Shown: one piece after another, positions 22,365-49,082 of the stretch
Numbering within the stretch: the first letter of the stretch is position 1
How the letters are laid out: each line of letters begins with the position of its first letter
Assembly (NCBI GenBank): GCA_963845245.1
Contig: CAWJRJ010000018.1
Span: forward strand, 1 to 64,000
Length of the DNA: 64,000 nucleotides
From: Nitrospirota bacterium
GTDB lineage: Bacteria > Nitrospirota > JACRHJ01
Reading direction: 5' to 3'
Notes under the pieces: generated by a model
What the model was told of the DNA's origin: nothing
Database searches by the model: none
Seen by the model: only the letters and a program-made list of their open reading frames with translations
Translations under genes and position numbers: made by a program

Positions 22365-22374
22365 GGAGAGCCGG

Positions 22375-23287: not shown

Positions 23288-24936
23288 TGGCCGAGGCTTC
23301 TATGGATTTATTCGAACTGATTGGGTCTTCCGACGACTATGTGCGCCTGAAGGCTATAGAACAGGCGGCGCTTGAGCCGGAGGAAAGGTCGGTCCCGCTT
23401 CTTCTCAGGGCGATGCGTGACGGCGACATAAGGTTGCGGAACATGGCACGCGACCTGACGCTCAAGAAGGAACCGGAGACGCTGCTGCCGTACCTTGAGG
23501 CGGCAATGCGTGACGGCAACGACGCGGACCTGAGAAATGCGGCTATGGACATATACGCAGCCCTCTCGTCCCTGGCCGTGCCGGATTTGAACCGCCTTGT
23601 TACGGACGCCGACCCGGAAATAAGGAACTTCGCCTGCGTCCTCCTGGGGAACATCAGGGACATACAGAGCGTGCCAGCCCTGCTTGGCGCATTAAAAGAC
23701 GAAGAAACCAACGTCAAGCACGCGGCTGCGGAGGCCCTCGGCAAAACCGGGGACCCGTCGGCCGTGCCGGGCCTGCTGGAGGCGCTCGCGAGCGAGGCCG
23801 ACTGGTGGAGCGCATTCCCGATCGTTGCGGCATTGGGGGAACTGAAGGACGAAAGGGCGGTCTACCCGCTGTTGAAGCGCCTTGACGACGAACCGCTGAG
23901 GGTCAGCATCGCCATGGCGCTGGGTGACATAGCAAGCCCGTCCGCCCTTGAGACGATGCTGCCGCTTCTGGACGACGAAGATGACGGCGTGAAGACCCAG
24001 GCCCTCCTTGCAGTGGTCAAGATACAGGAACGCACACTTCGCGAGAACCCCTCAGAAGAATCAGAAACGGCACACTGCAGGTTTCTTGAGAAGATCAACA
24101 CATCCTGGTTAAGGCAGCATCTTCTGGACCTTTTGCCGGCATCCGACCCAGAGATCAAAAGGGCCGCACTGGTCGCGCTCGGCTGGTTGAGGGAGAGCAG
24201 GGCGGTCCCGAGGATGATAGACGCCTTGAAGGATGAGCCGCTTTCGGAGTCGGCCCTCGATGCCCTTGTTTCGATAGGCCTGCCTGCATTGAACGACGTG
24301 GAACTAAGCCTGGAGCACCCGGTCGGGATGGTCCGGCAGGCGCTGGTGAGGTACCTCGGCAGCATACGGCTTCCGTTCAGCGGACCGCCGCTCAGGCAGA
24401 TGCTAAAGGACGAACTCAGCATAGTCAGGGCCCAGGCGGCGCTCGCGCTGGGAAACCTCGGGGACATCGACGCCGCGGACGGGCTCATAGAGGCGCTTGG
24501 AGACGTGAACCCGGAGGTGCAGGAGTCCGCGGTCGCGGCGCTCGCAAACCTGAACCCGCAGATAATATGCGGCAAGCTCCTCCCGTACCTTAACGACAAC
24601 AACCAGCGCTATATCTTCCTGGCGGCCGAGGCCCTCGGCCAGCTCGGGCTCGACGAGGCCATAAACCCGCTGTCAACGTTGCTGATGGACGAACGCGACA
24701 TTATCAGGGAGATGGCGGTAAAGTCGATCGGGCTTATAGGCGGGGCCAACTCGGTCGGCCCGCTCTTCACCGGCCTCGGCGACAAAAGCCCCAGGGTGAG
24801 GCAGCAGGCGATCCAATCGCTTGGAAGGGTCAAAGAAAAGCTTGTGCTCAAGAAGCTGATACTTTTGCTGGAGGAACCGGACGACACCGTAAAATATTTC
24901 GCAATCAGGTCCTTGAAACAGTATGGCTCACGCTGA
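23287..24936 (+). CDS. HEAT-repeat (PBS-lyase type) protein
   Basis: At least 12 repeats of the form AxxALGxxGDxxAVPxLxxxLxDExxxVRxxAAxAL. Confidence 0.7.
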   Translation: MAEASMDLFELIGSSDDYVRLKAIEQAALEPEERSVPLLLRAMRDGDIRLRNMARDLTLKKEPETLLPYLEAAMRDGNDADLRNAAMDIYAALSSLAVPDLNRLVTDADPEIRNFACVLLGNIRDIQSVPALLGALKDEETNVKHAAAEALGKTGDPSAVPGLLEALASEADWWSAFPIVAALGELKDERAVYPLLKRLDDEPLRVSIAMALGDIASPSALETMLPLLDDEDDGVKTQALLAVVKIQERTLRENPSEESETAHCRFLEKINTSWLRQHLLDLLPASDPEIKRAALVALGWLRESRAVPRMIDALKDEPLSESALDALVSIGLPALNDVELSLEHPVGMVRQALVRYLGSIRLPFSGPPLRQMLKDELSIVRAQAALALGNLGDIDAADGLIEALGDVNPEVQESAVAALANLNPQIICGKLLPYLNDNNQRYIFLAAEALGQLGLDEAINPLSTLLMDERDIIREMAVKSIGLIGGANSVGPLFTGLGDKSPRVRQQAIQSLGRVKEKLVLKKLILLLEEPDDTVKYFAIRSLKQYGSR

Positions 24937-24939
24937 AGC

Positions 24940-25697
24940 GGCCCGCCCTCTGATAAAGCTCCTGGACGGGGACTCGCCAAAAAACATCAAAGTATGCCGT
25001 CATAGATGCGCTGGGTGTGATCGGAGACAGGGACGCATGCGGGCGGCTTCTGGAGCTGTCCCACTCTAACGACGCCGACCTGGCCATGGTGGCTATCAAG
25101 TCTCTCGGTGAGCTGGGATGTGCCGATGTAAAAGACGACCTCCTGGGCTTTCTGGCCCACGATGACTGGAGCATAAAGGCTGTCGCGGCCGCATCTCTGG
25201 GACGCGTCGGAGGAGAAGGGGTACTGGATGCTCTGGCCTGCCAGCTCAGCTCGCGTGACAGGGTCATCTGCTCAGGAGCTATAAAGGCGTTGGGCGAGCT
25301 GGGAGACCCTGCAGCCTCAAGGTTCCTTGTGCCGCTGCTTGCGGACGCACAGTTTCAGAAACAGGTGCTGGACTCACTTGCATTGCTGGGGCCAGGTTCA
25401 CTGAAAGGGACCATAGAGGCGCTGCGCGACGCACCGCCTGCTCTGCTCCTGAAGGGTATACGCCTGGTGGGCAAGATGAGAGACCCTGAAGGGGTCGATT
25501 ATCTCGCCGGGCTTCTGCGCCACCCAGACCCATCAATAAGAAAAGCCGCTGCTGCTGCCCTCGGCGACTCATGCCTGCGTGAGGCACTGGATGTCCTGGA
25601 CGAAACCGTCATGAACGACGAGGAACCTATAGTAAGGGACGCAGCCGCGTCAGCGGCATCGATCATAAGGAACCAGGAATTTTTAAATGCTAATTAG
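24940..25697 (+). CDS. Second HEAT-repeat protein; frameshifted at the N-terminus and possibly continuous with the previous gene
   Basis: ARPLIKLLDGDSPK...YAVIDALGVIGDRDACGRLLELSHSNDADLAMVAIKSLGELG, then further HEAT repeats up to 25697. Confidence 0.5.
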
Positions 25698-26589
25698 AAC
25701 TTACTCGGACGAACTAAGCGCAAGGGCGGCAGTGCAGCTGCAGCAGGCGGCGCAGGCGCCCCAACTACAGGATTATGAATTCAGGCTTCTGCGTGACTAT
25801 ATCCACCAGTACTGCGGGATATTTTACGACGACGCAAAGTCCTCCACCCTGGCATCCAGGCTGTCCTTCAGGCTGAAGCTGCTGGGAATCAGTTCTTATT
25901 CGGAATATTACAATTATCTCAAATTCAACCCGCGCTCCGAGGAAGAGATAGAGGACCTGATTCCTCACCTGACGAACAACGAAACGTATTTTTTCAGGGA
26001 GATGAACCAGATATCCTTTCTCATAGATGAACTCGCCGGGAAACTGAAGGAAGGCGGACCGGGAAAAAAGACGTTGAAGGTCCTGTCGTGCGGGTGCTCT
26101 TCAGGCGAAGAGGCATTCACCCTCGCCATGCTCCTTGAGGAGGCGGGCGCGTATTCTGCAGGGCACAGCATAGAGATAACCGGCATAGACATTGACAGGA
26201 AGGTCATAGAAAAGGCCGTGAAAGGCGAATATACGAGCTATTCCCTGAGGGCCGCCGAAAAAGAGCGGATAGACCGCTATTTTAAAAGTGAAGGGGACAA
26301 ATACATCCTTGACAGGCGCATAAGGGACCGTGTGACATTCAAGCGGGGAAACCTCCTCGACCCCGCCACGTTCAATTCGTTCCGGGACGTGGACGCGATA
26401 CTTTGCAGAAACGTGTTCATCTATTTCTCGGACGGCGCAATACGGAGCATAGCAGGCTTTTTCCACGGGATAATATCCGGCAAGGGGCAGCTCTTGCTAG
26501 GGCATTCTGAATCGCTTTCGCGCATAACGGACATATTCAGGCCGGTACGTAACCCGAACGTCATAGTCTACACCAAAAAGGATTTTTAA
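25687..26589 (+). CDS. cheR: Second CheR-type chemotaxis methyltransferase
   Basis: NNETYFFRE, VLSCGCSSGEEAFTLAML, ILCRNVFIYF. Confidence 0.8.
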   Translation: MLIRTYSDELSARAAVQLQQAAQAPQLQDYEFRLLRDYIHQYCGIFYDDAKSSTLASRLSFRLKLLGISSYSEYYNYLKFNPRSEEEIEDLIPHLTNNETYFFREMNQISFLIDELAGKLKEGGPGKKTLKVLSCGCSSGEEAFTLAMLLEEAGAYSAGHSIEITGIDIDRKVIEKAVKGEYTSYSLRAAEKERIDRYFKSEGDKYILDRRIRDRVTFKRGNLLDPATFNSFRDVDAILCRNVFIYFSDGAIRSIAGFFHGIISGKGQLLLGHSESLSRITDIFRPVRNPNVIVYTKKDF

Positions 26590-26593
26590 CCTC

Positions 26594-27661
26594 ATGGCCA
26601 AAAAGATACGTGTCCTTGTCGTAGACGATTCCGCGTTTATGAGGAAGGCCCTGGTCAGGATGCTTTCATCAGACCCGTCGATAGAGGTGCTGGATACGGC
26701 ATCCGACGGCGAGGATGGATACCGGAAGACCATGAAACTGAGGCCGGACGTTGTCACGCTGGACGTGCGCATGCCAGGGATGGACGGGATAACCGCACTG
26801 AGAAAGATAATGTCCGACTGTCCCGTTCCGGTAATAATGCTCTCCTCATTGACCAGCGAGGGTGGCGAGGTCACACTCAGGGCCCTTGACATCGGCGCCG
26901 TGGACATCATCGACAAGTCCAAGGCGCATACCGCCATGGATATTCTGGAGATAGCTGGCGAACTGCTTGACAAGGTGAAGGCGGTCGCTGGTGTGGACGT
27001 GGCCAAGATAGCCCGCAGGGCCGTGTCTGTCCCTGAGGCGCACCAGGATCCTTATTCTCCTCCTCTTCACAGCGGGAAGGTCGACATGATAGTGGTGGGT
27101 GCGTCCACGGGCGGCCCGCCCGCGCTCCAGGATATCCTTACAAAGCTTCCTGCGGACCTCCCGGCCGCGATACTGATAGTGCAGCATATGCCGTTGGGGT
27201 TTACCGCATCGCTGGCTGAAAGGCTGAACAGGCTCGCGCCGATTGCGATCTCGGAAGCGTTCGACGGTAACAGGGTAAAGCCCGGCCGGTGCCTGATCGC
27301 GCCATCCGGCCTGCATATGACCATCAGGAAGGACGACGATGGTGTATTTGTGCGCCTGCTGGAGGAGCCAGTGAAGACCCTTCACCGTCCGTCCGTCGAT
27401 ATCCTGATGTCGTCTGCGGCGGAGGTAGTGGGCAGCAGGGCCCTTGGGGTACTGCTCACAGGCATGGGCGCCGACGGGGCCAAGGGGATGAAGGCGTTGC
27501 ATGATGCGGGTGGCAGGACTATAGCGCAGGACGAAGAGAGCTGCGTGGTATACGGGATGCCCAAGGTGGCGGTCGAACTGGGTGGAGTCGACAGGTCTCT
27601 ACCGCTGCGTCAGATACCCACCGCCATTTTGCAGGAGCTCGGCGCCGTGTCGCTCGGCTGA
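26594..27661 (+). CDS. cheB: Chemotaxis methylesterase CheB (REC plus CheB catalytic domain)
   Basis: REC (VLVVDDSAFMRKAL...DVVTLDVRMPGMDG) and methylesterase domain (VVGASTGGPPAL, HMPLGFT, GMGADGAKG, the S-H-D catalytic context). Confidence 0.9.
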   Translation: MAKKIRVLVVDDSAFMRKALVRMLSSDPSIEVLDTASDGEDGYRKTMKLRPDVVTLDVRMPGMDGITALRKIMSDCPVPVIMLSSLTSEGGEVTLRALDIGAVDIIDKSKAHTAMDILEIAGELLDKVKAVAGVDVAKIARRAVSVPEAHQDPYSPPLHSGKVDMIVVGASTGGPPALQDILTKLPADLPAAILIVQHMPLGFTASLAERLNRLAPIAISEAFDGNRVKPGRCLIAPSGLHMTIRKDDDGVFVRLLEEPVKTLHRPSVDILMSSAAEVVGSRALGVLLTGMGADGAKGMKALHDAGGRTIAQDEESCVVYGMPKVAVELGGVDRSLPLRQIPTAILQELGAVSLG

Positions 27662-27713: not shown

Positions 27714-29700
27714 CTAAAGTCTTCCTTCCACCAGGTTGTCTACTACGGTCGGGTCTGCAAGGGTGGAGGTGTCTCCCAGGTTATCAAGCTCGTTTGCGGC
27801 TATCTTCCTGAGTATCCTCCGCATTATCTTGCCGCTTCTGGTCTTTGGCAGTCCGGGGGCGAACTGGAGCTTGTCCGGCGCGGCTATCGGACCGATGACG
27901 GTCCTGACGTGTCCTACGAGTATCTTCTTCAGCTCGTCAGAGGCCGTGAAGCCGTCCTTGAGGGTTACGTAGACGTAGATGCCTTCGCCCTTGATGTCGT
28001 GCGGGTAGCCTACGACCGCGGCCTCCGCGACCGCCTCGTGCGAGACGAGGGCGCTCTCCACCTCGGCGGTACCCAGCCTGTGGCCGGACACGTTGATGAC
28101 GTCGTCGATCCTGCCCATCAGCCAGAAGTCACCGTCCTCGTCAAACCTGGCGCCGTCACCGCTGAAGTAGACGCCCGGGAACCGGCTGAAGTATACTTCC
28201 TTCATGCGGGTATTCTCAGGGTCGCCGTAGGTGCCGCGCAGCATCCCGGGCCAGGGCCTCTCGATTACCAGGTATCCGCCCTCGTTGGCCCCGGCGGGCG
28301 AGCCGTCCTCTCTTATTATCTTTGGCAGTATGCCCGGGAATGGCCTGTTGGCCGAGCCGGGCTTCAGTGTCATTGCGCCGGGTATGGGTGTGATCATGAA
28401 GCCGCCGGTCTCGGTCTGCCACCACGTATCGACGATGGGGAGCTTCCTGCTGCCGATGTTCTTGTGGTACCACATCCAGGCCTCGGGGTTTATGGGTTCT
28501 CCGACCGTGCCGAGCACCCTCAGGGACGAGAGGTCGTAGTTCTGAACCCACTTCTCGCCCTCCTTCATGAGCGCGCGTATGGCGGTCGGTGCGGTGTAGA
28601 ATATGTTCACCCCGAACTTCTCCACTATGTCCCAGAACCTGCCCGGGTTCGGGTAGGTGGGTATGCCCTCGAACATGAGGCTCGTGGCCCCGTTTGAAAG
28701 GGGGCCGTAGACCACGTAGCTGTGGCCCGTTACCCAGCCTATGTCGGCGGTGCAGAAATGTATGTCCTCTTCCTTGTAGTCGAATGTCCACCTGAACGTG
28801 AGGTTCGTATAGAGCAGGTAGCCGCCGGTCGTGTGGAGCACGCCCTTCGGTTTGCCGGTCGAGCCGGACGTGTAGAGGATGAACAGGGGGTCCTCGGCGT
28901 CCATCCATTCCGGTTCGCAGTAGTTGCAGACATGTGCAGTCGTTCATTTCGTCGTGCCACCACGTGTCGCGGCCCGGCGCCATGTCAATGCCGTCCTTGC
29001 CGGTGCGGTTAACGACTATTACGCTTGTCACGGTCGGGCACTCGTTCAAAGACTCGTCCGCGTTGACCTTGAGAGGGACTATCCTGCCGCCCCTGATGCC
29101 AGCGTCGGCGGTGATGAGCATGCTCGACTTGCAGTCCTGGATCCTGTCCCTCAGCGCGCTTGCGGAGAAGCCGCCGAACACTATGCTGTGTATAGCGCCG
29201 ATCCTGGCGCATGCGAGCATCGATATCGCCAGTTCCGGGATCATGGGCAGATATATTGTAACCCGGTCGCCCTTCTTGACGCCCTTCCTCAGCATGACGT
29301 TGGCGAACCTGTTCACCTCGCGGTAGAGCTGCTGGTATGTATAGGTCTTGTACGTGCCGTCGTCGGCCTCCCATATTATGGCGGCCTTGTTCCTGAAGGT
29401 AGGGCTCTGGACGTACCTGTCAAGGCAGTTGTAGGATACGTTGAGCTTGCCGCCCTTGAACCAGTTTATCTCGGGTTTGTGAAAGTCGTATTCAAGGACG
29501 CTGTCCCATTTCTTGTACCACGTAAGGTTCTTTTCGGCCATCTCGGCCCAGAAGTCTTCCGGGTCCTCGATGGACCATTTGTAGAGCTTTTCGTACTCTT
29601 CCATGCTCTTTATATGGGCATTCTTTGAGAATTTCTCGCGTGGCGGGAATGTCCTTGATTCGCTGGAATGTACCTCTATACCCATGTCCGATTCCGACAT
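27714..29700 (-). CDS. acs: Acetyl-CoA synthetase (AMP-forming); apparent frameshift near 28905-28940
   Basis: N-terminal half ([33 protein letters not shown]) and C-terminal half ([48 protein letters not shown]) sit in two overlapping frames. Confidence 0.85.
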
Positions 29701-32160: not shown

Positions 32161-32275
32161 TGTTACTTTAAGTAATGCAGAAATAATCTATTGTTAAATT
32201 CCTTTAAATAACAAGCGAATGCATATGTTACTTATGGTAACGCAGTGGGGTCGGAATAAGTTACTTTTTGTTACA
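32161..32275 (-). promoter_or_regulatory. Cluster of TGTTAC/GTAACA inverted and direct repeats (candidate enhancer sites for the adjacent sigma54 activator)
   Basis: TGTTACtttaaGTAAT (32161), TTGTTA-N12-TAACAA (32191-32214), TGTTACttatgGTAAC (32226-32241), GTTACtttttGTTACA (32260-32275), all between the activator gene and the sigma54 promoter. Confidence 0.4.
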
Positions 32276-33632
32276 AATGGTCGCTTCTTGGTATGCTCCA
32301 GCGCTTGCGTTTCTCCCAGAGGGATTTGCGGGTTATCCCCAGCATGTCCGCAATCTTCTGCTCGGTCATATTCTGCTGGTATTTCAGTATTATTGCTTTC
32401 GTGTACTCCTCTATTGAAAGGGCATCCAAATCAATAGCGGAACTGGTTGTGGCCAGCGGGCTGTTTCTGAGCTTGTCGGGCAGGTGTTCGGGCGTGATCG
32501 AGTTGATGTCGGTGATGAGGACGGCCCTCTCGATTATATTCTTCAGTTCGCGCACGTTTCCCGGCCATGAATATTCCATGAATATCGAGATTACCTCGTC
32601 CGATATGTCCTTTACCGGTTTCCCGAGTTCGGCCGCGTATTTGTCGAGGAAGTGTCGGGCAAGCAGCGGCACGTCTTCCTGCCTCTCCCTGAGCGGGGTC
32701 AGAGCAAGGTTGATCGTGTTTATGCGGTAGTAGAGGTCTTCCCTGAACGAGCCGTCCTTGGTGGCCTTCTGGAGGTCCTTGTTTGTCGCCGTTATGAACC
32801 GCAGGTTTACTTTCAGGCTCTGGTTCCCGCCGACCTGCCTTATCTCCTGGTCCTCTATCACCCGAAGCAGTTTTGACTGGAGCCCCGTGCTCATCTCGCC
32901 GATCTCGTCGAGAAATACGGTGCCGCTGTTCGCTTCTTCAAACAGCCCCTTCTTTGCGGCGACCGCGCCGGTGAAAGCACCCTTTGCATGTCCGAAAAGC
33001 TCTGACTCAAGCAGGTTTTCCGGTATCGCCGAGCAGTTTATGGGCACGAACGGCTTGTCCTTGCGCATGCTGCTGTAGTGTATGGCGCGCGCGATAAGCT
33101 CCTTGCCCGTCCCAGTCTCGCCCACAATCAGGACGTTGCTCTTCGCGTCGGCAATCTTTGTGACCTCGTCCAGTACCTTCCTTATCTTCGGGCAGACGCC
33201 TATTATATGGCTGAAGTCGTACTCCTTCTCTATCTGTTTCCGAAGGATAAGGTTTTCCGTCTGGAGCGAGCGCTGTTTGAGGGCGCTTCGTACCAGCAGT
33301 TTCACCTCTTCATGGATTATGGGCTTCATTATATAGTCGTATGCTCCGGCGCGCAGAGCCTCGACTGCCGTCTCGAGCGAGGCGAATGCGGTCATCAGCA
33401 CGATAAGCTGGTCGGGTTGTCTCTCCCGCACCTTACGGAGCACCTCTATCCCGTCTATCCCGGGCAGGAAGATGTCGCTGATTATCAGGTCGTAGATGGC
33501 CGACCCGGTCAGTTCCAGGGCATCCTCCCCGGTGCCAGTGGTTGTCACGTCGTAACCTTCACGCGTCAGGAGCCGCCCGAGCGACTCGCGGAGCGTCTCC
33601 TCATCGTCTATTATCAGTATCCTCTCAGACAT
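32271..33632 (-). CDS. Sigma54-dependent response regulator (NtrC/CbrB-like)
   Basis: REC (ILIIDDEETLRESL...DLIISDIFLPGIDG), AAA+ ([42 protein letters not shown]), and a C-terminal HTH. Confidence 0.85.
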   Translation of the reverse strand: MSERILIIDDEETLRESLGRLLTREGYDVTTTGTGEDALELTGSAIYDLIISDIFLPGIDGIEVLRKVRERQPDQLIVLMTAFASLETAVEALRAGAYDYIMKPIIHEEVKLLVRSALKQRSLQTENLILRKQIEKEYDFSHIIGVCPKIRKVLDEVTKIADAKSNVLIVGETGTGKELIARAIHYSSMRKDKPFVPINCSAIPENLLESELFGHAKGAFTGAVAAKKGLFEEANSGTVFLDEIGEMSTGLQSKLLRVIEDQEIRQVGGNQSLKVNLRFITATNKDLQKATKDGSFREDLYYRINTINLALTPLRERQEDVPLLARHFLDKYAAELGKPVKDISDEVISIFMEYSWPGNVRELKNIIERAVLITDINSITPEHLPDKLRNSPLATTSSAIDLDALSIEEYTKAIILKYQQNMTEQKIADMLGITRKSLWEKRKRWSIPRSDHL

Positions 33633-36564
33633 CTTTCGCCCCCATCGGCAGACTTATTATGAATGTGGTGCCCTTGCCCTTTTCGCTGTCCACCAGTATC
33701 TTCCCTCCGTGTTCTTTTATTATCCCGTAGCAGATGCTCATCCCAAGACCAGTACCCTTGCCGGGTGACTTGGTCGTGAAGAACGGGTCGAAAACCTTCT
33801 CCGCCGTGTCCTTGTCCATGCCAAGGCCGGTGTCCTTGAATATGATGTCGACATTGTCCTTTGACTGTTTCACCTTTATGGCAAGCCTACCGCCCTCCGG
33901 CATGGCGTCCAGCGCATTCAGCAGCAGGTTCAAGAATACCTGCTGTATCTGGTCTGGGTTTATATTAACGTCCGGGACGGTCTCGATGTCCTGGGTTATC
34001 TCGATCTTCTTGAACTTTTTGTCGTAGCGGGTGAGGTTGAGGGTGCTGTCAAGAACGTCTATTATGTTTGTGCTTACCTTCTCCGGTGTGTAAAGCCTTG
34101 CAAAATCGCCCAGGCTTCGCACTATCCTGACTATCCTCCCGATGTGGTGGTTTATTATATCGAGGGCTTCTTTATGGAACTCCGGGGAGCTTACCTCCTG
34201 TATCTCCTGCACGAGCGAGGATATGGAGGCCAGCGGGTTCCCGATCTCGTGGGATATGCCTGCGGTCAGTTTGCCGATGCTCGCGTATTTCGACGCCTGA
34301 AGGAGTTCTTCCTCCCTCCTCTTGGTCTCGGTGATGTCGTCTATCATCAAGACGAAGCCGCCCTGCGGGTCCTTGAACTGGCTTACGGACACCTTAAGCA
34401 GCGCGGGCGACAGCGATTTCCGGTCGCAGGTGTACTCCCCGCCGGCGATGCCGCCGGAGAAGATGTCCGGCTTTATGCAGTTGAGGAGTTCCTCAATTGG
34501 CCTGCTATGGGCATTGTCTCTTTTGATGTTTGATATAGACTCCATCGCTTTATTCCAGTAAGTGACCCTGTGCTCACGGTCGAGTGTTGCAATGCCCTGA
34601 GGCACGCTCTCGATGATGTTCTGGCTGAACTCCTTCAGGAACGAAAGCTCGACATTTGCCTCCTCAAGCTTCTCCCTCGAAAGCCTGAGCCGGTCGGTTA
34701 TCTGCCTTATCGAGGACGAAAGCTCGTCTGTAAGCACCAGCCTTTTCCTGAGGATCAGGGTGGAGATGGCCGAGCCGAGCGCGCCTGAGAGTATCTTTTC
34801 GGCCTCGTCCCGAAGCTCGACAAGCTGTTCAGGTTTTATCTCCGCCGCGTTTATCTTCCGGCGTTCCATGAACTGCGCTATAGCGGCCCTGGCCTCGTCC
34901 ATCCCTATATAACTTCCCAACAGCCGTTCTACTTCCTCCACACTGTGCAACCCCGGGAAGGATGCGCCGCCGACAGGGTCGTACGACTCCACGAACACGA
35001 AGGCCTGCCTCTCCTCCTCGGCAGACTGTTTAGTGAATATGGAAACGCTTAAATAGAGGCCGAGGTTTATAAGCAGGCTCCAGAACAGCGAGTGGGTCCA
35101 TTTGTCCAGGCCGCCTACACCGAAGAGCGCGTTCGGGTTAAGGGCGGATGAGCTGAAAAGCTGTTGCAGGTACGCGTTCGATATGACGCCCGCCTTCACC
35201 AGCGCAGGTATGAAGAGCGTATACAGCCACACGATAAAGCCCGCGACCAGGCCGGCCATCGCGCCCCTTCTGTTCCCGCCCTTCCAGTAAAGCCCGATGA
35301 GAAGCGACGGCGCAAAGAGCGTCACCGCCTCGAACGACTTCAGCCCCATGTCAACAAGGGAATAGAACTCGCCGACCGAGACCGCGAAGAAATAGCCCAG
35401 GAACACGCAGAACAGTATGACGAGCCTTTTCACATTCAAGACCAGCGCGGGAAAACCCTTGGTCTTGTTGAAGCGGATAAGCACCGGCATGACAAGGCTG
35501 TTCATCACCATCGTGGAAAGCGCGAGCGACTCCACGATTATCATCCCGGTCGCGGCCGAGAAGCCGCCGAGGAATACGAGCAGTGCAAGTGCTGGTTTGC
35601 TCTGTCCCAGCGGGATGGTAAGGAGGAAGCTGTCCGCCTGCGACACCTGTCCGCCCAGCAGCAGCCCGCCGAAGGCGACCGGCAGCACGAATATATTTAT
35701 CAGGAGCATATAGAGCGGGAAGAGCCACATCGCCTTCAGGATGTGCTTAGGGTCGGAGTTCTCCACGACGGCCATGTGGAACTGCCTCGGCAGGAACATT
35801 ATGGCCATCATCGAAAGGAACGTCAGCGAGCCCCACTCGAAATACGAGGTTGGGCTCTCGGTGCCCAAGCTGAAAAGCCTGCCCGAGCCGGTCTCGGCCA
35901 CCCTCTGAAATATGTCGCCGAAGCCGTTGAATATTCCGTATGTAACGAATGCCCCGGCAATCAGGAACGCGAACAGCTTCAGTATGGACTCGAACGCTAT
36001 CGCGAACACCAAGCCCTCGTGCCGCTCCGAGGAGTCCAGCTTCCTCGCTCCGAAAATGATCGCAAATATCCCAAGGAACAGGGCGATGAACCAGCCAGCC
36101 GCCAGGCTTCCCTCCGTATGGCCGGTCATTATTTCGTACGTGGATATTATGGATTTTATCTGGAGGCCGAGGTACGGCGTTATGCCTACGAGCGCCACGA
36201 CCGCTACCAATGCGGAGAGCGAGAGTGACCGGCCATAGCGCGCGCCGATGAAGTCGGCGATGTTCGTTATCCTGTTCTCCTTCGCCACCACAACCATCTT
36301 GCGCAGGATAATCCACCACAGACAGGCCATCAGCGTCGGGCCCAGGTATGTCGTCAGGAAAGAAAGCCCGGATGTGGCGGCCTTGCCGATGCTGCCGTAG
36401 AACGTCCATGAGGTGCAGTATACCGCGAGCGATAGCGAATATATGTAGGGGTTTGAGACAATGCTCCTGCCCGCCTTCTCACGCGCCTCGGCGTAGTATG
36501 CCAGCGCGAACAGCAGGAACAGGTATGCGAGGACGATAATAAATAGTGTGCCGGGGTTGAACAC
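33625..36564 (-). CDS. Sensor histidine kinase with an N-terminal sodium:solute-symporter (SSS) domain (CbrA/CrbS-like)
   Basis: About 13 TM helices (SSS family), coiled coil, PAS, HisKA ([14 protein letters not shown]), HATPase (DTGLGMD...[18 protein letters not shown]). Confidence 0.85.
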
Positions 36565-36744
36565 CTATCCGCCGTCCTCCTCTTTTGATGCCCTGCGGAT
36601 GAAGAGGTAGATGAGCGCGATGAGGAGCAGCCAGGTGGTGTAGAGGTATGCGGGCAGGTGCGAGCCGAAGATGGCCAGGAGTGGCCAGTTCAACGCCAAA
36701 GTACCTATAAAGAAAAGAAAAACCCAGACTTCCTTCGTCTTCAT
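36565..36744 (-). CDS. Small 2-TM membrane peptide translationally coupled to the SSS-kinase (cbrX-like)
   Basis: 59 aa (MKTKEVWVFLFFIGTLALNWPLLAIFGSHLPAYLYTTWLLLIALIYLFIRR...). Its stop abuts the kinase start codon. Confidence 0.4.
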   Translation of the reverse strand: MKTKEVWVFLFFIGTLALNWPLLAIFGSHLPAYLYTTWLLLIALIYLFIRRASKEEDGG

Positions 36745-36794
36745 GTTACCTAATGTAACATTACTAAAAACCTTTGTCAACGGGGAACACGAGC

Positions 36795-37142
36795 CTATGC
36801 CCCGGCCACCCCGCCCCGGAACATGAAATACGCCGCACCTGCCAGACATATCCCAGCCCAGAGGTAATCGAGCCTCAGGGGCTGCTTCATATATAGGTAC
36901 GCGAACCCCGCGAACACCGTCATCGTGATAATCTCCTGAATCACCTTCAACTGCCCCAGGTCGTAATATTTGTATCCAATCCGGTTCGCCGGGACCTGTA
37001 GTGTATACTCAAAGAAGGCGATTCCCCAGCTAACGAGTATCACGAGGATGAGCGGCTTGGTGCTCATCGTCTTTAAATGCCCGTACCAGGCGAAGGTCAT
37101 GAACATGTTGGAAAAGGTTAGAAGGACGATGGTCTTTAACAT
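36795..37142 (-). CDS. Small DMT-superfamily-like 4-TM membrane protein
   Basis: MLKTIVLLTFSNMFMTFAWYGHLK...; hydrophobic; DUF486/EamA-like pattern. Confidence 0.45.
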   Translation of the reverse strand: MLKTIVLLTFSNMFMTFAWYGHLKTMSTKPLILVILVSWGIAFFEYTLQVPANRIGYKYYDLGQLKVIQEIITMTVFAGFAYLYMKQPLRLDYLWAGICLAGAAYFMFRGGVAGA

Positions 37143-37290
37143 GGCTTCCTCAAAAAACTGGTTAATAACATGACGCAATAGGTTATTTTACGCCAAAACC
37201 AGACTAACTGCAAGATATTGCTGACAAAAACATGACACGAAAATGTCGCTTGACATCGAAAAAAAATAGGCATATCTTTATCCCGATTTC

Positions 37291-37467
37291 TGATTGCAGC
37301 CGAGATCCAGTTAACAATGGATGCGGGGGACCCAGATTCCGGGGCGGATTCCTTCTTTTTGAGGATAAGGCACTCCCAAGCCTGAGCCCGACAGCTAACC
37401 TCGTAGGCGTTTGGTGAGCAATGAGCAGTGCGTGAGCCGCTGGTCTTGCCAGTGGTTTTCTTTTTTT
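37291..37467 (+). ncRNA. c-di-AMP (ydaO-type) riboswitch candidate with a terminator expression platform
   Basis: Contains GCGGGGGACCCA, GGGGCGGAUUCC, and GAGCCCGACAGCUAACCUCGUAGGCGUUUGGUGAGC, which resemble the conserved blocks of the ydaO motif. It is followed by the hairpin CCGCTGGtcttgCCAGTGG plus TTTTCTTTTTTT. It is preceded by TTGACA at 37249 and lies about 50 nt upstream of a KimA-like transporter gene. Confidence 0.6.
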
Positions 37468-37514
37468 AAAAAGGGTCTATTGGGTAAGGCCTTCATGAGG
37501 GGGAATTGGTTTAA

Positions 37515-39515
37515 ATGAATGCGCCATCCAATGAACGAAAGACACTTAAAAAGAGGCTTAAAAACCTTGTTATAGGCGGCGGGCGCGACATATTCGACCC
37601 GCAAGTGTTCCACAACATCTCGCTGATAGCCTTCTTTGCCTGGGTAGGTCTTGGCGCCGACGGGCTGTCGTCGTCTTGCTACGGTCCGGAGGAGGCCTTC
37701 CTCGCGCTTCAGGGCCACACGCACCTGGCTGTTTTCATAGCCCTGGCCTCGGGCATCACCGTCTTCGTCATAAGCACCAGCTACTCGCAGATAATCGAGC
37801 TTTTCCCCACCGGCGGCGGCGGATACCTTGTGGCAAGCAAGCTCCTCTCGCCCACCGCTGGCATGGTCTCCGGCTGCGCGCTGCTCATAGACTACGTCCT
37901 CACGATCACGATATCCGTCGCATCTGCTGCGGACGCCATCTTCAGCTTCCTGCCGCCGCACTGGCTTGCTTACAAGCTCGGGTTTGCGGTGATTGCGGTA
38001 CTTGTGCTTACCGTTATGAACCTGCGGGGCGTGAAAGAGTCCGTGCTGCCGCTTGTGCCAATATTCCTCACCTTCATCGCCACGCACGCATTCTTCATCA
38101 TCTATGCGCTTGTGTCGCATGCCGGAAACTTCCCGGAGCTCATCCATTCCACCGGGACCGAGATACAGCGCACGCACACGGAACTCGGGTTTTTCGGGAT
38201 GTTCTTCCTTATAATGCGCGCGTACAGCCTGGGCGCCGGTACCTATACCGGCATCGAGGCGGTCAGCAACGGGCTGCCCATACTTCGTGAGCCGAGGGTA
38301 AAGACCGGCAAAAAGACTATGCATTACATGGCCTTCTCATTGGCCTTCACCGTCATGGGCCTTATGTTCGCCTACCTGCTCTACGGCGTCTCGCACGTGC
38401 CGGGCAAGACCCTCAACGCGGTCCTCTTTGAGAACATAACCAAAGGCTGGGGAGGTTCCGCCTACATTTTAGTGCTGGTCACGCTGATCTCAGAAGGAGT
38501 GCTGCTCCTGGTCGCGGCCCAGGCAGGCTTTTTGGACGGGCCAAGGGTGCTCTCGAACATGGCGCTAGACCGCTGGTTCCCCACGAAGTTCGCGTCATTC
38601 TCGGACCGCCTCGTCACGCAGAAAGGCATACTGATAATGGGTGGCGCCGGGTTGGTAATGATGGTGCTCTCGAAAGGCTCAGTCGGCTTGCTCGTCGTCC
38701 TGTATTCCATCAACGTCTTCATCACATTCTCGATGTCGCAGCTCGGCATGGTGCGCCACTGGTGGCAGGAGCGGGGCAAGGCGGACCACTGGAAGAAGAA
38801 GCTCTTCATCAATGGGCTTGGTCTTTCCATGACCACTTTCATACTCATCTCGGTCGTCATATTGAAGTTCGGGGAGGGCGGATGGATAACGCTTGTAATA
38901 ACCGGCGCTCTCATCGGGCTTTCGCTCCTGATCAAGAGGCACTACCTGAACACCCAGAAGATGCTGGGCAGGCTTGACACCCTTGTCGAGGCGGCAGGGT
39001 ATGACCTCCACACCAAAACAGAACTTGAGGGCGAAGGGTACAAGGTTCAGTACGACCCGAAGTCCAAGACGGCAGTCCTGCTGGTAAACGGATACAACGG
39101 GCTGGGGCTGCATACCCTCCTGAACGTCATACGGCTTTTCGGGGGGATGTTCAGGAACTTTGTGTTCATAGAAGTGGGCATAGTGGACGCAGGCACCTTC
39201 AAGGGCGCGGAAGAGCTTGAGCACCTGAAGAAGAAGGTCAACGGAGACCTGGAGATGTACGTCAATTTCGTCAAGAGCAAGGGCTTCTATGCGGAAGGGT
39301 TTGCAATGATCGGCACGGACGTTGTCGAGGAGGTATCCAAGGTGACGCCCGAGATCATGGATAAATTCGGCAACACGGTATTCTTTGGCGGCCAGCTCGT
39401 ATTCCCGAACCCGTCGATCTTTACGGGCTTCCTGCACAACTACACCATCTTCGCCGTGCAGAGGTATTACTACAACCAGGGCATACCCATAATGATGATG
39501 CCGATACGGGTCTGA
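37515..39515 (+). CDS. APC-superfamily transporter with a C-terminal cytoplasmic domain of about 220 aa (KimA-like K+ importer candidate)
   Basis: 12 TM helices of the APC fold (GGGYLVASKLL, LLIDYVLTITISVA) plus a soluble C-terminal domain; context of a c-di-AMP riboswitch. Confidence 0.65.
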   Translation: MNAPSNERKTLKKRLKNLVIGGGRDIFDPQVFHNISLIAFFAWVGLGADGLSSSCYGPEEAFLALQGHTHLAVFIALASGITVFVISTSYSQIIELFPTGGGGYLVASKLLSPTAGMVSGCALLIDYVLTITISVASAADAIFSFLPPHWLAYKLGFAVIAVLVLTVMNLRGVKESVLPLVPIFLTFIATHAFFIIYALVSHAGNFPELIHSTGTEIQRTHTELGFFGMFFLIMRAYSLGAGTYTGIEAVSNGLPILREPRVKTGKKTMHYMAFSLAFTVMGLMFAYLLYGVSHVPGKTLNAVLFENITKGWGGSAYILVLVTLISEGVLLLVAAQAGFLDGPRVLSNMALDRWFPTKFASFSDRLVTQKGILIMGGAGLVMMVLSKGSVGLLVVLYSINVFITFSMSQLGMVRHWWQERGKADHWKKKLFINGLGLSMTTFILISVVILKFGEGGWITLVITGALIGLSLLIKRHYLNTQKMLGRLDTLVEAAGYDLHTKTELEGEGYKVQYDPKSKTAVLLVNGYNGLGLHTLLNVIRLFGGMFRNFVFIEVGIVDAGTFKGAEELEHLKKKVNGDLEMYVNFVKSKGFYAEGFAMIGTDVVEEVSKVTPEIMDKFGNTVFFGGQLVFPNPSIFTGFLHNYTIFAVQRYYYNQGIPIMMMPIRV

Positions 39516-39554: not shown

Positions 39555-40007
39555 TTGAACATGTGGCAATGCAGCCGGTACCTCGTAGCGTTACTTTTTA
39601 TCTGCATCCTGCTTTTAGCGCCCGCATCCACGCGTGCAGCCCAGGAAAAAGAGATATGTGTGGCTCAGGGCGAAGTCACGGTCCTGGTGTCGCTTGAACT
39701 GCCGGAAGGCTACGCCATAAGTGATGATGCCCCGTCGAGCGTCAAAACCACGTCTTCAAGCGTCAAGGCCATAAGCTTTGACGGCAAGCCGTCAACAACC
39801 GTAACAAACCCATCCTTCCCCCTGAAACTAAAGGCCAGGGCAAACGGAGGCAAAGCCGACCTGACGCTTGAGTTTAACGTATACTACTGCGGCCACAAGG
39901 ACACCTCTGTGTGCAAGGCCTACCGGAATAAAGTCACGGTCCCGATATCGGTTGCCAAAGGTTCAGGCACCAAAAGCATAAAAATCCACCAGAAAGTCGC
40001 CCTCTAA
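39555..40007 (+). CDS. Secreted hypothetical protein
   Basis: Signal peptide (LVALLFICILLLAPASTRAAQ), SD GAAGGAGG, Ser/Thr-rich. Confidence 0.5.
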   Translation: MNMWQCSRYLVALLFICILLLAPASTRAAQEKEICVAQGEVTVLVSLELPEGYAISDDAPSSVKTTSSSVKAISFDGKPSTTVTNPSFPLKLKARANGGKADLTLEFNVYYCGHKDTSVCKAYRNKVTVPISVAKGSGTKSIKIHQKVAL

Positions 40008-43714: not shown

Positions 43715-44317
43715 TCAGCCTATAAGGTAAAGCAACGGGAACAGATAAATCCATACCAGGTCGACGAAATGCCAGTAGATGCCGGTTATCTCGACCGGGG
43801 TCGAATACTCCTCGGAGAATGCGCCCCGGTTCGCCATTATCAGCATGATGGTCAGCGCGGTCATGCCGGCGATGACATGTATCGCATGAAGCCCTGTCAT
43901 CATGTAGTAGAGCGAGAAGAACAGGTTCGTGGAAGGGAGGTCGCCCTGCCCTATATGCTCGGAGTATTCCAGGTACTTGATGAACAAAAATAAAGCCGCC
44001 AGTACGAGGGTTATGACAAGACAGAGCTTCAGTACTGCCTGTTTGCCCGCCTTTATGGCCGCTATGCCTATAGCGACGCTCAGGCTGCTGCATATCAGTA
44101 CGACGGTATTCACCGTGCCGAACGTGCGGTTCAAGTGCAGGTGCTGCTGATAGAACAGGTCAGGATACCTTACCCGGTAGACAGTATATGTGGTGAACAG
44201 GCCGCCGAACAATAGGAGTTCCGTTGCCAGGAAGGCCCATATCCCAAGCTTCGCCTTATCGATAGCCGCGGTCGTGCTTTCCGCAACCTCGTTATTTTCC
44301 GTTGGCATGTCAGCCAT
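43715..44317 (-). CDS. coxC: Cytochrome c oxidase subunit III
   Basis: COX3 fold; C-terminal [22 protein letters not shown]. Confidence 0.85.
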
Positions 44318-45921
44318 TCTCGTCCTTCCGTTTCCCGTAGCTGTACGGCCAGTCCGTCACCACCGGTATCTCTTTGAAGTTGTCCGTGGGAGGCGGAGAG
44401 GGCGTTGTCCACTCAAGCGTCAGCCCGCGCCACGGGTTGGCCGGGGCCATCTCGCCCTTATAGATGCACCTGATGAAGTTATAGAACATAATCAGGATGC
44501 CGGCCGCGAGGATCCATGAACCTACGGTGGAGATTATGTGCTGCGACTGGAATTTTTCAGGGTATGTCGCGTACCGCCTCGGCATCCCCCTGAAACCCAG
44601 GATGAACATGTTGAAGAAGGTGATGTTGAACCCGACGATTATGAAGGCCCAGGCACGCTTCGCCGTCTTCTCGTTCAGCATCCGCCCGGTCATCTTGGGA
44701 AACCAGTAATGCAGCCCTGCAAAAAGCCCCATCACCGTCCCTCCCATTATCGTGTAGTGGAAGTGCGCTACGAGGAAATAGGTCTCGTGCAGGTGCACGT
44801 CCGTGGCAAGCGAGCCCAGGAACGGCCCGGTAAGCCCGCCTATTATAAAAAGGAAAATGAAGGTGAGTGCGTATATCATCGGGGAATCGAGGTTTATCGA
44901 GCCCCTGTACATGGTGGCTATCCAGTTGAACACCTTTATGCCGGTGGGTATGGCGACCGAGAAGGTGAGGAACGAGAATATTATCGTGGCAATGCTCGAC
45001 ATCCCGGCGACAAACATGTGGTGGCCCCATACGAGGAACCCGGCCCCGGCGATTGCAAGGGACGAGTATGCGATGGCCTTGTATCCGAATATCGGTTTTC
45101 GGGTGAATACCGGTATTATCTCGCTTATTATGCCCATCGCGGGGAGTATCATCACGTAGACCACCGGATGCGAATAGAACCAGAAGAAATGCTGGAATAG
45201 CAGCGGGTCTCCCCCCTTGGCCGGGTCAAAGAACCCGAAACCCAGCAGGCGCTCGGACAGTAACATCAGGAACGTCACACCCACCACCGGTGTCGCAAGC
45301 ACGTTTATGATGCTGGTGGCATATATCCCCCAGATAAAAAGCGGCAGCCTGTGCCAGGTCATGCCCGGTGCACGAAGCTTGTGGATCGTCACGATGAAAT
45401 TAAGGCCGGTGAGTATCGACGACATGCCGATAAGGAAAATGCCTAAGGCGACTATGGTAACGCTCGTCGCCGTCCTTGCAGAGTATGGCGTGTAGAACGT
45501 CCAGCCGGTATCTATCGGGTGCACCATCGAGATCATGATGACAAACACGCCCATAACGATAGATCCAGAAGCTGGCAATATTCAGGCGCGGGAAGGCAAC
45601 GTCCCGGGCCCCTATCAGTAGCGGGATTATGAAGTTCCCGAGCGCCGACGGTATGACCGGGATGACGAAAATAAAGATCATGATAACGCCGTGGAGCGTG
45701 AACAGTTCGTTGTAGGTCTGGTTCGATACGAGCCAGTTGCTCGGTTCAAGGAGCTCAAGGCGCACAAGCAGACCCAGCACGCCGCCCACCAGGAAGAAGA
45801 ACAGGATCGTAAGAAGGTACATCACCCCGATCCGCTTATGGTCAAGCGTATATGCCCAGGACCGGAAGCCGGTGGTCTCGTTCAGGTAGTTTTTTTCTAT
45901 GGAAGTCTGTTGTCCGTTCAT
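44310..45921 (-). CDS. coxA: Cytochrome c oxidase subunit I (apparent frameshift near 45570)
   Basis: Heme-copper oxidase motifs: [40 protein letters not shown]. The N-terminal 173-aa ORF (45400-45921) continues in the 44310-45578 frame. Confidence 0.85.
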
Positions 45922-48187: not shown

Positions 48188-49082
48188 ATGCTTCCAAAAG
48201 AGATTCTAAAGAAGATAAAACGCCTTGAGATAAAGACCTCGAGGCTCGTTGAAGGCCAGCTTGCCGGGAGCTACCTCTCGACGTTCCGGGGCCGGGGCAT
48301 CGAGTTCTCCGAGGTGCGCGAGTACCTGGAAGGCGACGACGTGCGGAGCATAGACTGGAACGTCACCGCCCGGATGAACGCGCCGTTCGTCAAGACGTTC
48401 ATGGAGGAGCGCGACCTCACCGTCATGCTCGCGGTCGATTTTTCCGGCTCGATGGAGTTCGGGACGCTCGCGCAGACGAAGAGGGAGCTTGCGATAGACT
48501 TCTGCGCCGCCGCCGCACTGCTTGCCGCAGGCAACAACGACCGGGTAGGGCTCATCGCGTACGCCGAGGGCATCGAGCTTTTCATACCGCCCAGGAAGGG
48601 CCGCCGGCATGTGCTTAAGCTTCTGGCGGAGCTGTCGGCCCTCAAGCCACGTGGGACGCGGCAGCGGTCATGCTGTCGCGGCAAGCATGCTCATGAGGGT
48701 GCTGAAGACCCGCGCCACGCTGTTCTGGGTGTCTGACTACATGGGTGCCAATGGGGCAAATGGGGGCGCGAAGGGGTTGAAGGCGCTTTCCAGACGCCAC
48801 GAACTTGTGCCGGTGCTGCTAAAGGACGGGCGCGAGACCGTGATGCCGCCCGTGGGCCTTGTTGAGCTTTCAGACCCCGAGACCGGCGACAAGACGCTGG
48901 TGGACACCTCGTCAAAGGAGTTCATGGCCGCATTCGCTGCGTGGATAACGGAGACAGACACATCGCGCGAAGCCCTGTTTAAGTCCCTGAGGGCGGAGCA
49001 CATAGAGATTACAACCGGAGGCTCCCCTGTAACCCCGCTTACCCGCTATTTCCGCCGCAAGGCGAGGCTCGGGAGGCATTAG
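48188..49082 (+). CDS. DUF58-family protein (MoxR-associated vWA-like); frameshift near 48655
   Basis: SYLSTFRGRGIEFSEVREYLEGDDVRSIDWNVTAR...LAVDFSGSM is the DUF58 signature. Confidence 0.7.

What the first reader, a model, noticed from the sequence alone, without database searches (positions are those of the whole stretch)
37291..37467. ydaO-type c-di-AMP riboswitch candidate controlling a KimA-like potassium transporter
The leader contains three blocks that match my recollection of the ydaO motif: CGGGGGACCCA, GGGGCGGAUUCC, and CCCGACAGCUAACCUCGUAGGCGUUUGGUGAGC. A Rho-independent terminator follows (CCGCTGG/CCAGTGG plus U-tract), which would make it an OFF-switch. The downstream gene is an APC transporter with a large cytoplasmic C-terminal domain, the architecture of the c-di-AMP-regulated K+ importer KimA (ydaO). 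This would indicate c-di-AMP signalling and K+ homeostasis in this Gram-negative lineage.
Basis: partly seen in the sequence, partly recalled or inferred. Interest (0 to 1): 0.6.

Follow-up and report, generated by a model that had tools for sequence, protein, structure and literature searches.

The report
c-di-AMP riboswitch controlling KimA-like transporter
The leader is a textbook c-di-AMP-sensing riboswitch followed by a transcription terminator, in front of a homologue of the potassium importer KimA; this is the classic arrangement known from Bacillus, here in an uncultured Nitrospirota bacterium, so it is real but ordinary.

Summary
Rfam's c-di-AMP model (RF00379) matches window 37288-37423 (+) over its full length at 83.8 bits (gathering score 38, E 5e-18). 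A stable hairpin with a U-run (37434-37467) follows, then a Shine-Dalgarno-like site and a 666-aa APC-type permease (37515-39515). The only solved relative of that protein by sequence is B. subtilis KimA (E 9e-56; profile 2e-84). All ten K+-site, gate and coupling residues examined are conserved, and the predicted fold matches KimA over both domains.

The same riboswitch-gene pairing recurs in all 5 closer metagenomic relatives that have upstream DNA. It also recurs in 16 of 59 more distant loci (Nitrospirota, Desulfovibrionales, Verrucomicrobiota), with compensatory changes in the helices. All seven Nitrospirota-type leaders keep the terminator.

The likely function is an OFF switch: high c-di-AMP terminates transcription of a K+ importer.

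Three things were not shown. No antiterminator better than chance was found. No diadenylate cyclase lies in the 64-kb window, and the rest of the genome could not be read. Ligand binding and K+ transport are inferred. This is a new member of a well-known kind, and interest is low.

The parts
37250..37278 (+). Sigma-70-like promoter candidate: TTGACA (37250-37255), 17-nt spacer, TATCTT (37273-37278). It would start transcription about 37285, just before the aptamer.
   Evidence: 10 of 12 consensus matches. This is a pattern match only: 1 site was found against 0.9 expected in shuffles, so it is not significant on its own.
37288..37423 (+). c-di-AMP riboswitch aptamer (RF00379, ydaO/yuaA type). 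P1 is 37298-37301 / 37406-37409. The hairpin is 37305-37307 / 37320-37322. The long-range helix is 37323-37328 / 37399-37404. The inner helices are 37342-37344 / 37387-37389, 37350-37353 / 37362-37365 and 37368-37371 / 37380-37383.
   Evidence: 83.8 bits, E 5e-18, full-length model. (pair map: 24 of 26 pairs standard). (48 of 56 conserved positions). (compensatory changes in relatives).
37434..37467 (+). Intrinsic terminator: hairpin GAGCCGCTGGT-CTT-GCCAGTGGTTT (37434-37458) running into the U-run TTTTCTTTTTTT (37456-37467).
   Evidence: about -15 to -16 kcal/mol. An equivalent hairpin plus U-run is present in all 7 Nitrospirota-type leaders.
37497..37503 (+). Shine-Dalgarno-like GAGGGGG, 11 nt before the ATG.
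   Evidence: Read directly from the sequence. Inference only.
37515..39515 (+). kimA-like gene: a 666-aa APC/KUP-type permease with a C-terminal cytoplasmic domain of about 180 aa. It is the regulated gene.
   Evidence: ORF. (AA_permease_2). (KimA 6s3k, E 9e-56; profile 2e-84). (D49, Y56, D126, Y127, T130, S134, T245, E248, N252 and Y397 correspond to KimA D36, Y43, D117, Y118, T121, S125, T230, E233, N237 and Y377). (model pLDDT 71.5; best PDB fold match is KimA 8b70, E 2e-23, 642 columns).
39555..40007 (+). Small ORF (150 aa, signal-peptide-like N-terminus, no Pfam family) 40 nt downstream of the kimA-like gene. It may be co-transcribed.
   Evidence: It is conserved at the same position in the closest relative L067 (82% identity). 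Co-transcription is inferred, not shown.

Best explanation
Window 37288-37467 (+) is a complete c-di-AMP riboswitch in the 5' leader of a kimA-type K+/H+ symporter gene of an uncultured Nitrospirota bacterium. It consists of an RF00379 aptamer followed by an intrinsic terminator. The proposed mechanism is this. When c-di-AMP is abundant, which in studied bacteria signals K+ sufficiency, the ligand locks the pseudo-symmetric aptamer. The downstream hairpin and U-run then stop RNA polymerase before the gene, so less importer is made (OFF switch). When c-di-AMP falls, the unliganded leader allows read-through and the transporter is expressed. Shown here: aptamer identity, the terminator, their conservation in relatives, and the KimA homology of the gene. 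Inferred: ligand binding, the direction of the switch, how aptamer folding is coupled to the terminator, K+ as the substrate, and the existence of a c-di-AMP synthase in this genome.
For: Aptamer: the RF00379 match covers the full model at 83.8 bits against a gathering score of 38, E 5e-18. 24 of 26 model pairs are standard, and 48 of 56 conserved positions match.

Conservation: the same aptamer lies directly upstream of the orthologous gene in 5 of 5 closer relatives (81.8-92.1 bits). It is also there in 16 of 59 more distant loci from Nitrospirota, Desulfovibrionales/Fundidesulfovibrio and Verrucomicrobiota.

Covariation: in the long-range helix, one position shows GC 7 / AU 6 / GU 5 and another GC 13 / AU 5. 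In the Nitrospirota set 12 of 39 predicted pairs have double changes, including four of the eight pairs of the first hairpin.

Terminator: the hairpin has 11 pairs, about -15 kcal/mol, plus a U-run. It starts 25 nt after P1, so it is compatible with a folded aptamer. An equivalent terminator is present in all 7 Nitrospirota-type leaders.

Gene: KimA is the only PDB relative by sequence. All ten K+-binding, gating and H+-coupling residues defined for KimA in PMC6994465 and PMC10284832 are conserved. Foldseek's top hits are the three KimA structures, aligned over 632-651 columns.

[quoted passage not shown] The B. thuringiensis kdp riboswitch works the same way (PMC6488665).
Against: No antiterminator could be established. 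The local hairpin 37423-37430 / 37438-37445 that RNAalifold proposes is no more stable than hairpins obtained with shuffled upstream sequence in 6 of 7 leaders. The pairing between the aptamer core and the terminator 5' strand (-14.1 kcal/mol) is unverified. In plain thermodynamic folds the terminator always forms.

No diadenylate cyclase domain is present in the 64-kb window (motif scan, tblastn, Pfam scans).

Eight conserved consensus positions differ from the Rfam consensus, for example GGGGCG instead of GGGGUG. At least the GGGGCG and GAGCCCG changes are shared by all related diderm examples.

Confidence: 0.87

Rival explanations
1. The aptamer is genuine, but regulation is not (or not only) ligand-promoted intrinsic termination. 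It could be an ON switch, or it could act on translation or through Rho, with the hairpin and U-run acting as a constitutive attenuator.
For: No antiterminator above chance was found. The terminator forms in every thermodynamic fold. Riboswitch-bearing relatives in Verrucomicrobiota and Desulfovibrionales have no terminator-like site between the aptamer and the gene (L034 has only a weak 6-pair site), so other expression platforms exist for the same aptamer-gene pair.
Against: The terminator is kept immediately after the aptamer in all 7 Nitrospirota-type leaders. It does not overlap the aptamer, which is the usual OFF geometry. Characterised c-di-AMP riboswitches on K+ importers are termination OFF switches. 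Repressing a K+ importer when c-di-AMP is high fits the known physiology.
Confidence: 0.07
2. The RNA is a variant or decayed ydaO-like aptamer that no longer senses c-di-AMP. It would have a different ligand or no function, for instance because the organism makes no c-di-AMP.
For: Eight of 56 highly conserved consensus positions differ. No DAC gene lies in the window (and the Pfam scans).
Against: The score is 46 bits above the family threshold. The same substitutions are shared by 23 related aptamers from three phyla, and helices are maintained by compensatory changes. That indicates purifying selection rather than decay. DACs are reported in most bacteria (PMC12448109). A 64-kb window is far too small to expect the cyclase gene.
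Confidence: 0.03
3. The riboswitch is as described, but the regulated permease is not a K+ importer. Public annotations call the family 'amino acid transporter' or 'APC family permease'.
For: Pfam sees only AA_permease and AA_permease_2. No NCBIfam model matches. Source names for homologues are 'amino acid transporter' or 'APC family permease'. Identity to KimA is only about 32% in the membrane domain.
Against: KimA itself is an APC-fold protein that carried the same annotation. Every residue of the KimA K+ site, the gates and the proton-coupling glutamate is conserved. KimA is the only sequence relative in the PDB and the top structural hit, ahead of amino-acid transporters.
Confidence: 0.06

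Closest known systems
B. subtilis ydaO (kimA) leader c-di-AMP riboswitch (Rfam RF00379)
   Same: Same aptamer family with a full-length model match. Same position in the 5' leader of a kimA-type gene on the same strand. An intrinsic terminator follows the aptamer. The expected logic is the same: high c-di-AMP represses a K+ importer.
   Different: The host is a diderm, an uncultured Nitrospirota bacterium, not a Firmicute. There are lineage-typical substitutions in conserved blocks, for example GGGGCG for GGGGUG and GAGCCCG for GAACCCG. The coupling element (antiterminator) was not identified here. Ligand binding was not tested.
B. thuringiensis kdpFABC c-di-AMP riboswitch (PMC6488665)
   Same: A c-di-AMP aptamer plus a canonical hairpin and U-tract terminator in the 5' UTR of a K+ uptake system. 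It has been shown experimentally to be a transcriptional OFF switch.
   Different: It regulates the Kdp ATPase operon, not a KimA-type symporter. Its leader is longer, with the terminator 143 bp before the start codon against about 50 nt here.
KimA, the K+/H+ symporter of the KUP family (PDB 6S3K, 8B70, 8B71)
   Same: LeuT/APC-fold membrane domain plus a C-terminal cytoplasmic domain. D36, Y43, D117, Y118, T121, S125, T230, E233, N237 and Y377 are all conserved. The H579-N580 motif of the c-di-AMP pocket is conserved as H641-N642, and S582 is T644, as in S. aureus KimA.
   Different: Identity is about 32% in the membrane domain. The protein is longer (666 aa against 607 aa) with a larger cytoplasmic domain that shows no significant sequence match to KimA. 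R337 is T357 and Q581 is Y643, so direct inhibition of the protein by c-di-AMP is uncertain.

Membership tests
c-di-AMP riboswitch (Rfam RF00379, ydaO/yuaA) | Covariance-model score above the curated gathering threshold over the whole model | tested here: met
   83.8 bits against 38, E 5e-18, model positions 1-134 of 134, not truncated.
c-di-AMP riboswitch (Rfam RF00379, ydaO/yuaA) | The set of nested helices, including the two long-range helices that close the pseudo-symmetric fold | tested here: met
   24 of 26 model pairs are standard. The exceptions are A37298-G37409 and A37334-C37340. RNAalifold on 7 relatives recovers the same helices.
c-di-AMP riboswitch (Rfam RF00379, ydaO/yuaA) | Highly conserved core nucleotides (the GGGGGACCC, GGGG.G.AU and CCCG.CAGCUAACCUCG blocks) | tested here: met
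   48 of 56 upper-case consensus positions are identical. At least the GGGGCG and GAGCCCG differences are shared by all 18 related aptamers. Which of these nucleotides contact the ligand was not mapped here.
c-di-AMP riboswitch (Rfam RF00379, ydaO/yuaA) | Structure maintained by compensatory changes in homologous leaders | tested here: met
   5 of 18 pairs have double changes across 18 sequences; 12 of 39 pairs across 7 sequences. The sequences are related, so these counts are not independent events.
c-di-AMP riboswitch (Rfam RF00379, ydaO/yuaA) | Located in the 5' leader, on the same strand, of a gene for K+/osmolyte transport or cell-wall metabolism | tested here: met
   The aptamer ends 92 nt before the ATG of the KimA homologue. 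The pairing recurs in 21 related loci.
c-di-AMP riboswitch (Rfam RF00379, ydaO/yuaA) | An expression platform that converts ligand binding into a genetic decision | tested here: inconclusive
   A terminator is present and conserved. No alternative (antiterminator) pairing better than shuffled controls was found.
c-di-AMP riboswitch (Rfam RF00379, ydaO/yuaA) | Selective, high-affinity binding of two c-di-AMP molecules | not testable with these tools
   This needs in-line probing, ITC or a structure.
KimA subfamily of KUP/APC K+ transporters | Sequence homology of the membrane domain to KimA | tested here: met
   E 9e-56 over residues 41-487; profile E 2e-84 over 9-490. KimA is the only PDB sequence hit.
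KimA subfamily of KUP/APC K+ transporters | K+-binding, gating and H+-coupling residues (D36, Y43, T121, S125, T230, Y377, D117, E233; also Y118 and N237) | tested here: met
   all ten are conserved (D49, Y56, T130, S134, T245, Y397, D126, E248, Y127, N252). The residue roles come from PMC6994465 and PMC10284832. Eight of the ten are invariant and two (S134, N252) nearly so in 30 close homologues. In the set of 22 homologues that reaches 45% identity, nine are invariant and Y397 is not.
KimA subfamily of KUP/APC K+ transporters | C-terminal cytoplasmic alpha/beta domain following the 12-TM core | tested here: met
   The AlphaFold model (pLDDT 71.5) has an alternating strand/helix domain at 518-665. 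Foldseek aligns 632-651 columns to the KimA chains, E 2e-23, TM 0.57-0.67. The high rmsd (15 A) reflects domain placement, and the model quality is moderate.
KimA subfamily of KUP/APC K+ transporters | c-di-AMP pocket residues in the protein (R337, H579, N580, Q581, S582) | tested here: inconclusive
   H641 and N642 are conserved and T644 replaces S582. R337 is T357 and Q581 is Y643. The C-terminal alignment is weak, with a domain score of 1.0 bit.
c-di-AMP signalling organism | A diadenylate cyclase (DisA_N/DAC domain) encoded in the genome | not testable with these tools
   None is present in the 64-kb window (motif scan, tblastn with a recalled CdaA domain, Pfam on about 55 ORFs). The 217,876-bp source contig and the rest of the MAG could not be retrieved.

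The most novel reading that the evidence does not exclude
All 24 aptamers seen here upstream of KimA-type genes in diderm phyla (Nitrospirota, Desulfobacterota, Verrucomicrobiota) share substitutions at positions that are near-invariant in the Rfam consensus: GGGGCG for GGGGUG and GAGCCCG for GAACCCG. They could form a sub-class with altered affinity or ligand preference. Separately, in the Nitrospirota leaders the terminator may be coupled to the aptamer by something other than a classical antiterminator, since none above chance was found.
Probability: 0.05. Interest if true: 0.55.

Novelty: new member of a known kind. Interest (0 to 1): 0.15.

Why it matters
The finding gives a confident functional annotation: the 'APC family permease / amino acid transporter' at 37515-39515 is a KimA-type K+ importer under c-di-AMP control. 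It is indirect evidence that this uncultured Nitrospirota lineage uses c-di-AMP to manage potassium and turgor, as Firmicutes do. The comparative data show that the riboswitch-kimA module is shared by several diderm phyla. The expression platforms differ: terminators in Nitrospirota, none detectable in Verrucomicrobiota or Desulfovibrionales. None of this changes current understanding. c-di-AMP riboswitches on K+ transporter genes have already been predicted in Proteobacteria and Verrucomicrobia (PMC6488665).

Tried and rejected
1. Antiterminator search. Duplex predictions between the aptamer and the terminator 5' strand gave -14.1 kcal/mol with the G-rich core 37328-37351 and -9.3 kcal/mol with 37423-37430. 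RNAalifold on 7 leaders truncated before the terminator 3' strand proposed a local hairpin. A shuffle control showed that hairpin is no better than chance (fraction of shuffles at or below the observed energy 0.42-0.74 in 6 of 7 leaders). I therefore do not claim an antiterminator.

2. Whole-leader MFE folding does not reproduce the aptamer (z-score -0.78). This is expected for a ligand-stabilised fold with long-range helices, so it is not used as evidence either way.

3. Finding the source genome and a diadenylate cyclase. The exact-protein contig look-up failed for the window protein and for its 100% identical database entry P0001. The cluster look-up gave no name or accession. Motif, tblastn and Pfam scans found no DAC in the window or in about 0.5 Mb of related loci.

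4. The C-terminal domain alone against PDB sequences gave no hit. Only the fold comparison and a weak profile stretch link it to KimA.

5. NCBIfam has no model for the transporter.

6. The primary riboswitch papers (Nelson 2013, Gao & Serganov 2014, Jones & Ferre-D'Amare 2014) and Galperin 2023 on DACs are not held in the library. Ligand-contact nucleotides and the phyletic spread of DACs are therefore not cited from them.

Full report
**Observation.** The inverted repeat CCGCTGG / CCAGTGG lies at 37437-37443 / 37449-37455 and is followed by TTTTCTTTTTTT at 37456-37467.

A covariance-model scan of the whole 64-kb window against all 4227 Rfam families returns RF00379, the c-di-AMP riboswitch (ydaO/yuaA leader), at 37288-37423 on the + strand. 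The score is 83.8 bits against a gathering score of 38, with E 5e-18, and it covers model positions 1-134 of 134. The only other hit in the window is a Moco riboswitch at 53151-53279. When the model's structure is mapped onto the window, 24 of 26 pairs are standard and 48 of 56 highly conserved consensus positions are identical.

**Anatomy of the leader.**
- A sigma-70-like promoter candidate, TTGACA-17-TATCTT, lies at 37250-37278. It is a pattern match only.
- The aptamer occupies 37288-37423, and its P1 3' strand ends at 37409.
- Twenty-five nucleotides later an 11-pair hairpin (37434-37458, about -15 to -16 kcal/mol) runs into a U-run ending at 37467.
- A GAGGGGG Shine-Dalgarno-like site at 37497-37503 precedes the ATG at 37515.
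- The terminator does not overlap the aptamer. A folded, liganded aptamer is therefore compatible with termination, which is the geometry of an OFF switch.

**The regulated gene.** ORF 37515-39515 encodes 666 aa. Pfam sees only the generic AA_permease and AA_permease_2 domains, and NCBIfam sees nothing. Against all PDB sequences the only relative is B. subtilis KimA (6S3K, 8B70, 8B71). The single-sequence E-value is 9e-56 over residues 41-487, and a 22-sequence profile gives 2e-84.

The KimA papers define several functional residues (PMC6994465 and PMC10284832). The occluded K+ site and gates are D36, Y43, T121, S125, T230 and Y377. The tunnel or trans-inhibition site is D117. The proton-coupling residue is E233. 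The Y118/N237 contact is used in c-di-AMP inhibition. All ten are conserved here as D49, Y56, T130, S134, T245, Y397, D126, E248, Y127 and N252. Eight of the ten are invariant and two (S134, N252) nearly so among 30 close homologues. In the set of 22 homologues that reaches down to 45% identity, nine are invariant and Y397 is not.

An AlphaFold model (mean pLDDT 71.5) has the helical core followed by an alpha/beta domain at 518-665. Foldseek's three best PDB matches are the KimA structures, aligned over 632-651 columns (E 2e-23 to 9e-20, TM 0.56-0.67), ahead of NKCC/KCC and amino-acid transporters.

The C-terminal domain has no significant sequence match to KimA. A weak profile stretch aligns H641-N642-Y643-T644 with KimA's c-di-AMP pocket motif H579-N580-Q581-S582. 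R337 corresponds to T357. Direct protein-level inhibition by c-di-AMP is therefore plausible but open.

**Relatives.** The transporter's closest named homologues are Nitrospirota MAG proteins. The same holds for the window's topoisomerase I (77-81% identity). Porin, OmpA, AsmA/DUF748 and YfiO-like genes in the window show a diderm envelope.

I scanned 59 genome loci encoding relatives (42-73% identity) with Rfam. RF00379 lies directly upstream of the gene in 16 of them:
- a Nitrospirae MAG, 92 bits;
- Desulfovibrionales and Fundidesulfovibrio agrisoli, 99-101 bits;
- a 'delta proteobacterium' MAG, 89.5 bits;
- twelve Verrucomicrobiota, Opitutaceae or Methylacidimicrobium loci, 49-66 bits.

One more hit, in L035, lies 2.6 kb upstream of the gene. 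Chlorobiaceae, Spirochaetota, Omnitrophota and other loci have none. In five closer metagenomic relatives (76-82% protein identity) with upstream DNA available, all five carry the aptamer at 82-92 bits.

Alignments show compensatory changes. In the long-range helix, one position has GC 7 / AU 6 / GU 5 and another GC 13 / AU 5. In the Nitrospirota set 12 of 39 predicted pairs have double changes, concentrated in the first hairpin. All seven Nitrospirota-type leaders have a hairpin plus U-run immediately after the aptamer, mostly GCCGCUG...CAGCGGC followed by U5-7. The Verrucomicrobial and Desulfovibrionales leaders have no terminator-like site, apart from a weak 6-pair one in L034. They presumably use another platform.

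**Mechanism.** The best-supported reading is a transcriptional OFF switch: c-di-AMP-bound aptamer, then termination, then less KimA-type importer. This is what has been shown for the B. subtilis ydaO/kimA leader (PMC5575661) and the B. thuringiensis kdp leader (PMC6488665). It also fits the physiology, in which c-di-AMP rises with K+.

The step I could not establish is the coupling. Thermodynamic folds always form the terminator. The candidate alternative pairings are the aptamer G-rich core with the terminator 5' strand, and a local hairpin 37423-37430 / 37438-37445. The local hairpin is no better than shuffled controls. Ligand binding, switch polarity and K+ transport are inferred, not shown.

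**c-di-AMP synthesis.** No DAC domain is encoded in the window, by motif scan, by tblastn with a recalled CdaA catalytic domain, or by Pfam scans of about 55 ORFs. This says little, because 64 kb is a small part of a genome. The source contig (217,876 bp, NCBI/ENA) could not be retrieved. DACs are reported in most bacteria (PMC12448109).

**Comparison and novelty.** This is the founding arrangement of the family: ydaO is kimA. [quoted passage not shown] Nitrospirota is not in that list, so the instance is a new member of a known kind, found by a standard Rfam scan. The lineage-typical substitutions in conserved blocks and the missing antiterminator are the only loose ends.

Noticed in passing
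window 53151-53279 (+), with ORFs 53266-54936 and 55039-55734: A second riboswitch: Rfam RF01055, the Moco (molybdenum/tungsten cofactor) aptamer, at 51.5 bits against a gathering score of 36. It lies directly in front of a Porin_O_P-type outer-membrane porin gene, followed by an ABC-transporter permease. This is probably a molybdate/tungstate uptake locus.
   Followed up: partly
window 3368-6968; 27714-29700; 44310-45921; 48188-49082; 60852-63127; also 22375-23031 and 52261-52815: Many genes are split into adjacent or overlapping ORFs: DUF748/AsmA-like in three pieces, acetyl-CoA synthetase, cytochrome oxidase subunit I, DUF58 and topoisomerase I in two pieces each, and truncated CheR and TatC. 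The public protein P0121 is the same 527-aa TopA fragment, so the frameshifts are in the deposited assembly. They look like indel errors rather than biology. The kimA-like gene is intact.
   Followed up: partly
L066 886-2985 and 3001-5004; L064 10001-12010 and 13755-15767: Close relatives carry two KimA-like paralogues. In L066 they are in tandem, with the riboswitch (747-887) only before the first. In L064 the second copy, 1.7 kb away, has no riboswitch.
   Followed up: partly
window 39555-40007 (+); L067 2063-2509: A 150-aa ORF with a signal-peptide-like N-terminus and no Pfam family sits 40 nt after the kimA-like gene. It is conserved at the same position in the closest relative (82% identity). 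It may be co-transcribed. Its function is unknown.
   Followed up: partly
L012 2725-2893, L018 2725-2894, L008 2719-2893 and other Verrucomicrobial loci: The Verrucomicrobial aptamers are 25-40 nt longer, with an extra hairpin insertion. The loop of their first hairpin (CCTTCC) is complementary to the 3' tail (GGAAGG), which suggests a pseudoknot (read by eye from the alignment). No terminator follows, apart from a weak site in L034, so a different expression platform is likely.
   Followed up: no
L035 240-402: In this Verrucomicrobiota locus the RF00379 hit lies 2.6 kb upstream of the KimA-like gene, presumably in front of another gene or a longer operon.
   Followed up: no
window 32271-36849 (-): Divergent from the riboswitch lies a DMT_6/DUF486 membrane protein (36795-37178). 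Next comes a 979-aa sensor kinase whose N-terminal multi-pass membrane region of about 560 aa has no Pfam hit (33625-36564). A sigma-54-dependent response regulator follows (32271-33632). No link to the riboswitch is apparent.
   Followed up: no
window 16677-27661 (+): A large chemotaxis cluster: response regulators, CheA, an MCP, two CheR genes and CheB, interleaved with two HEAT-repeat proteins.
   Followed up: no
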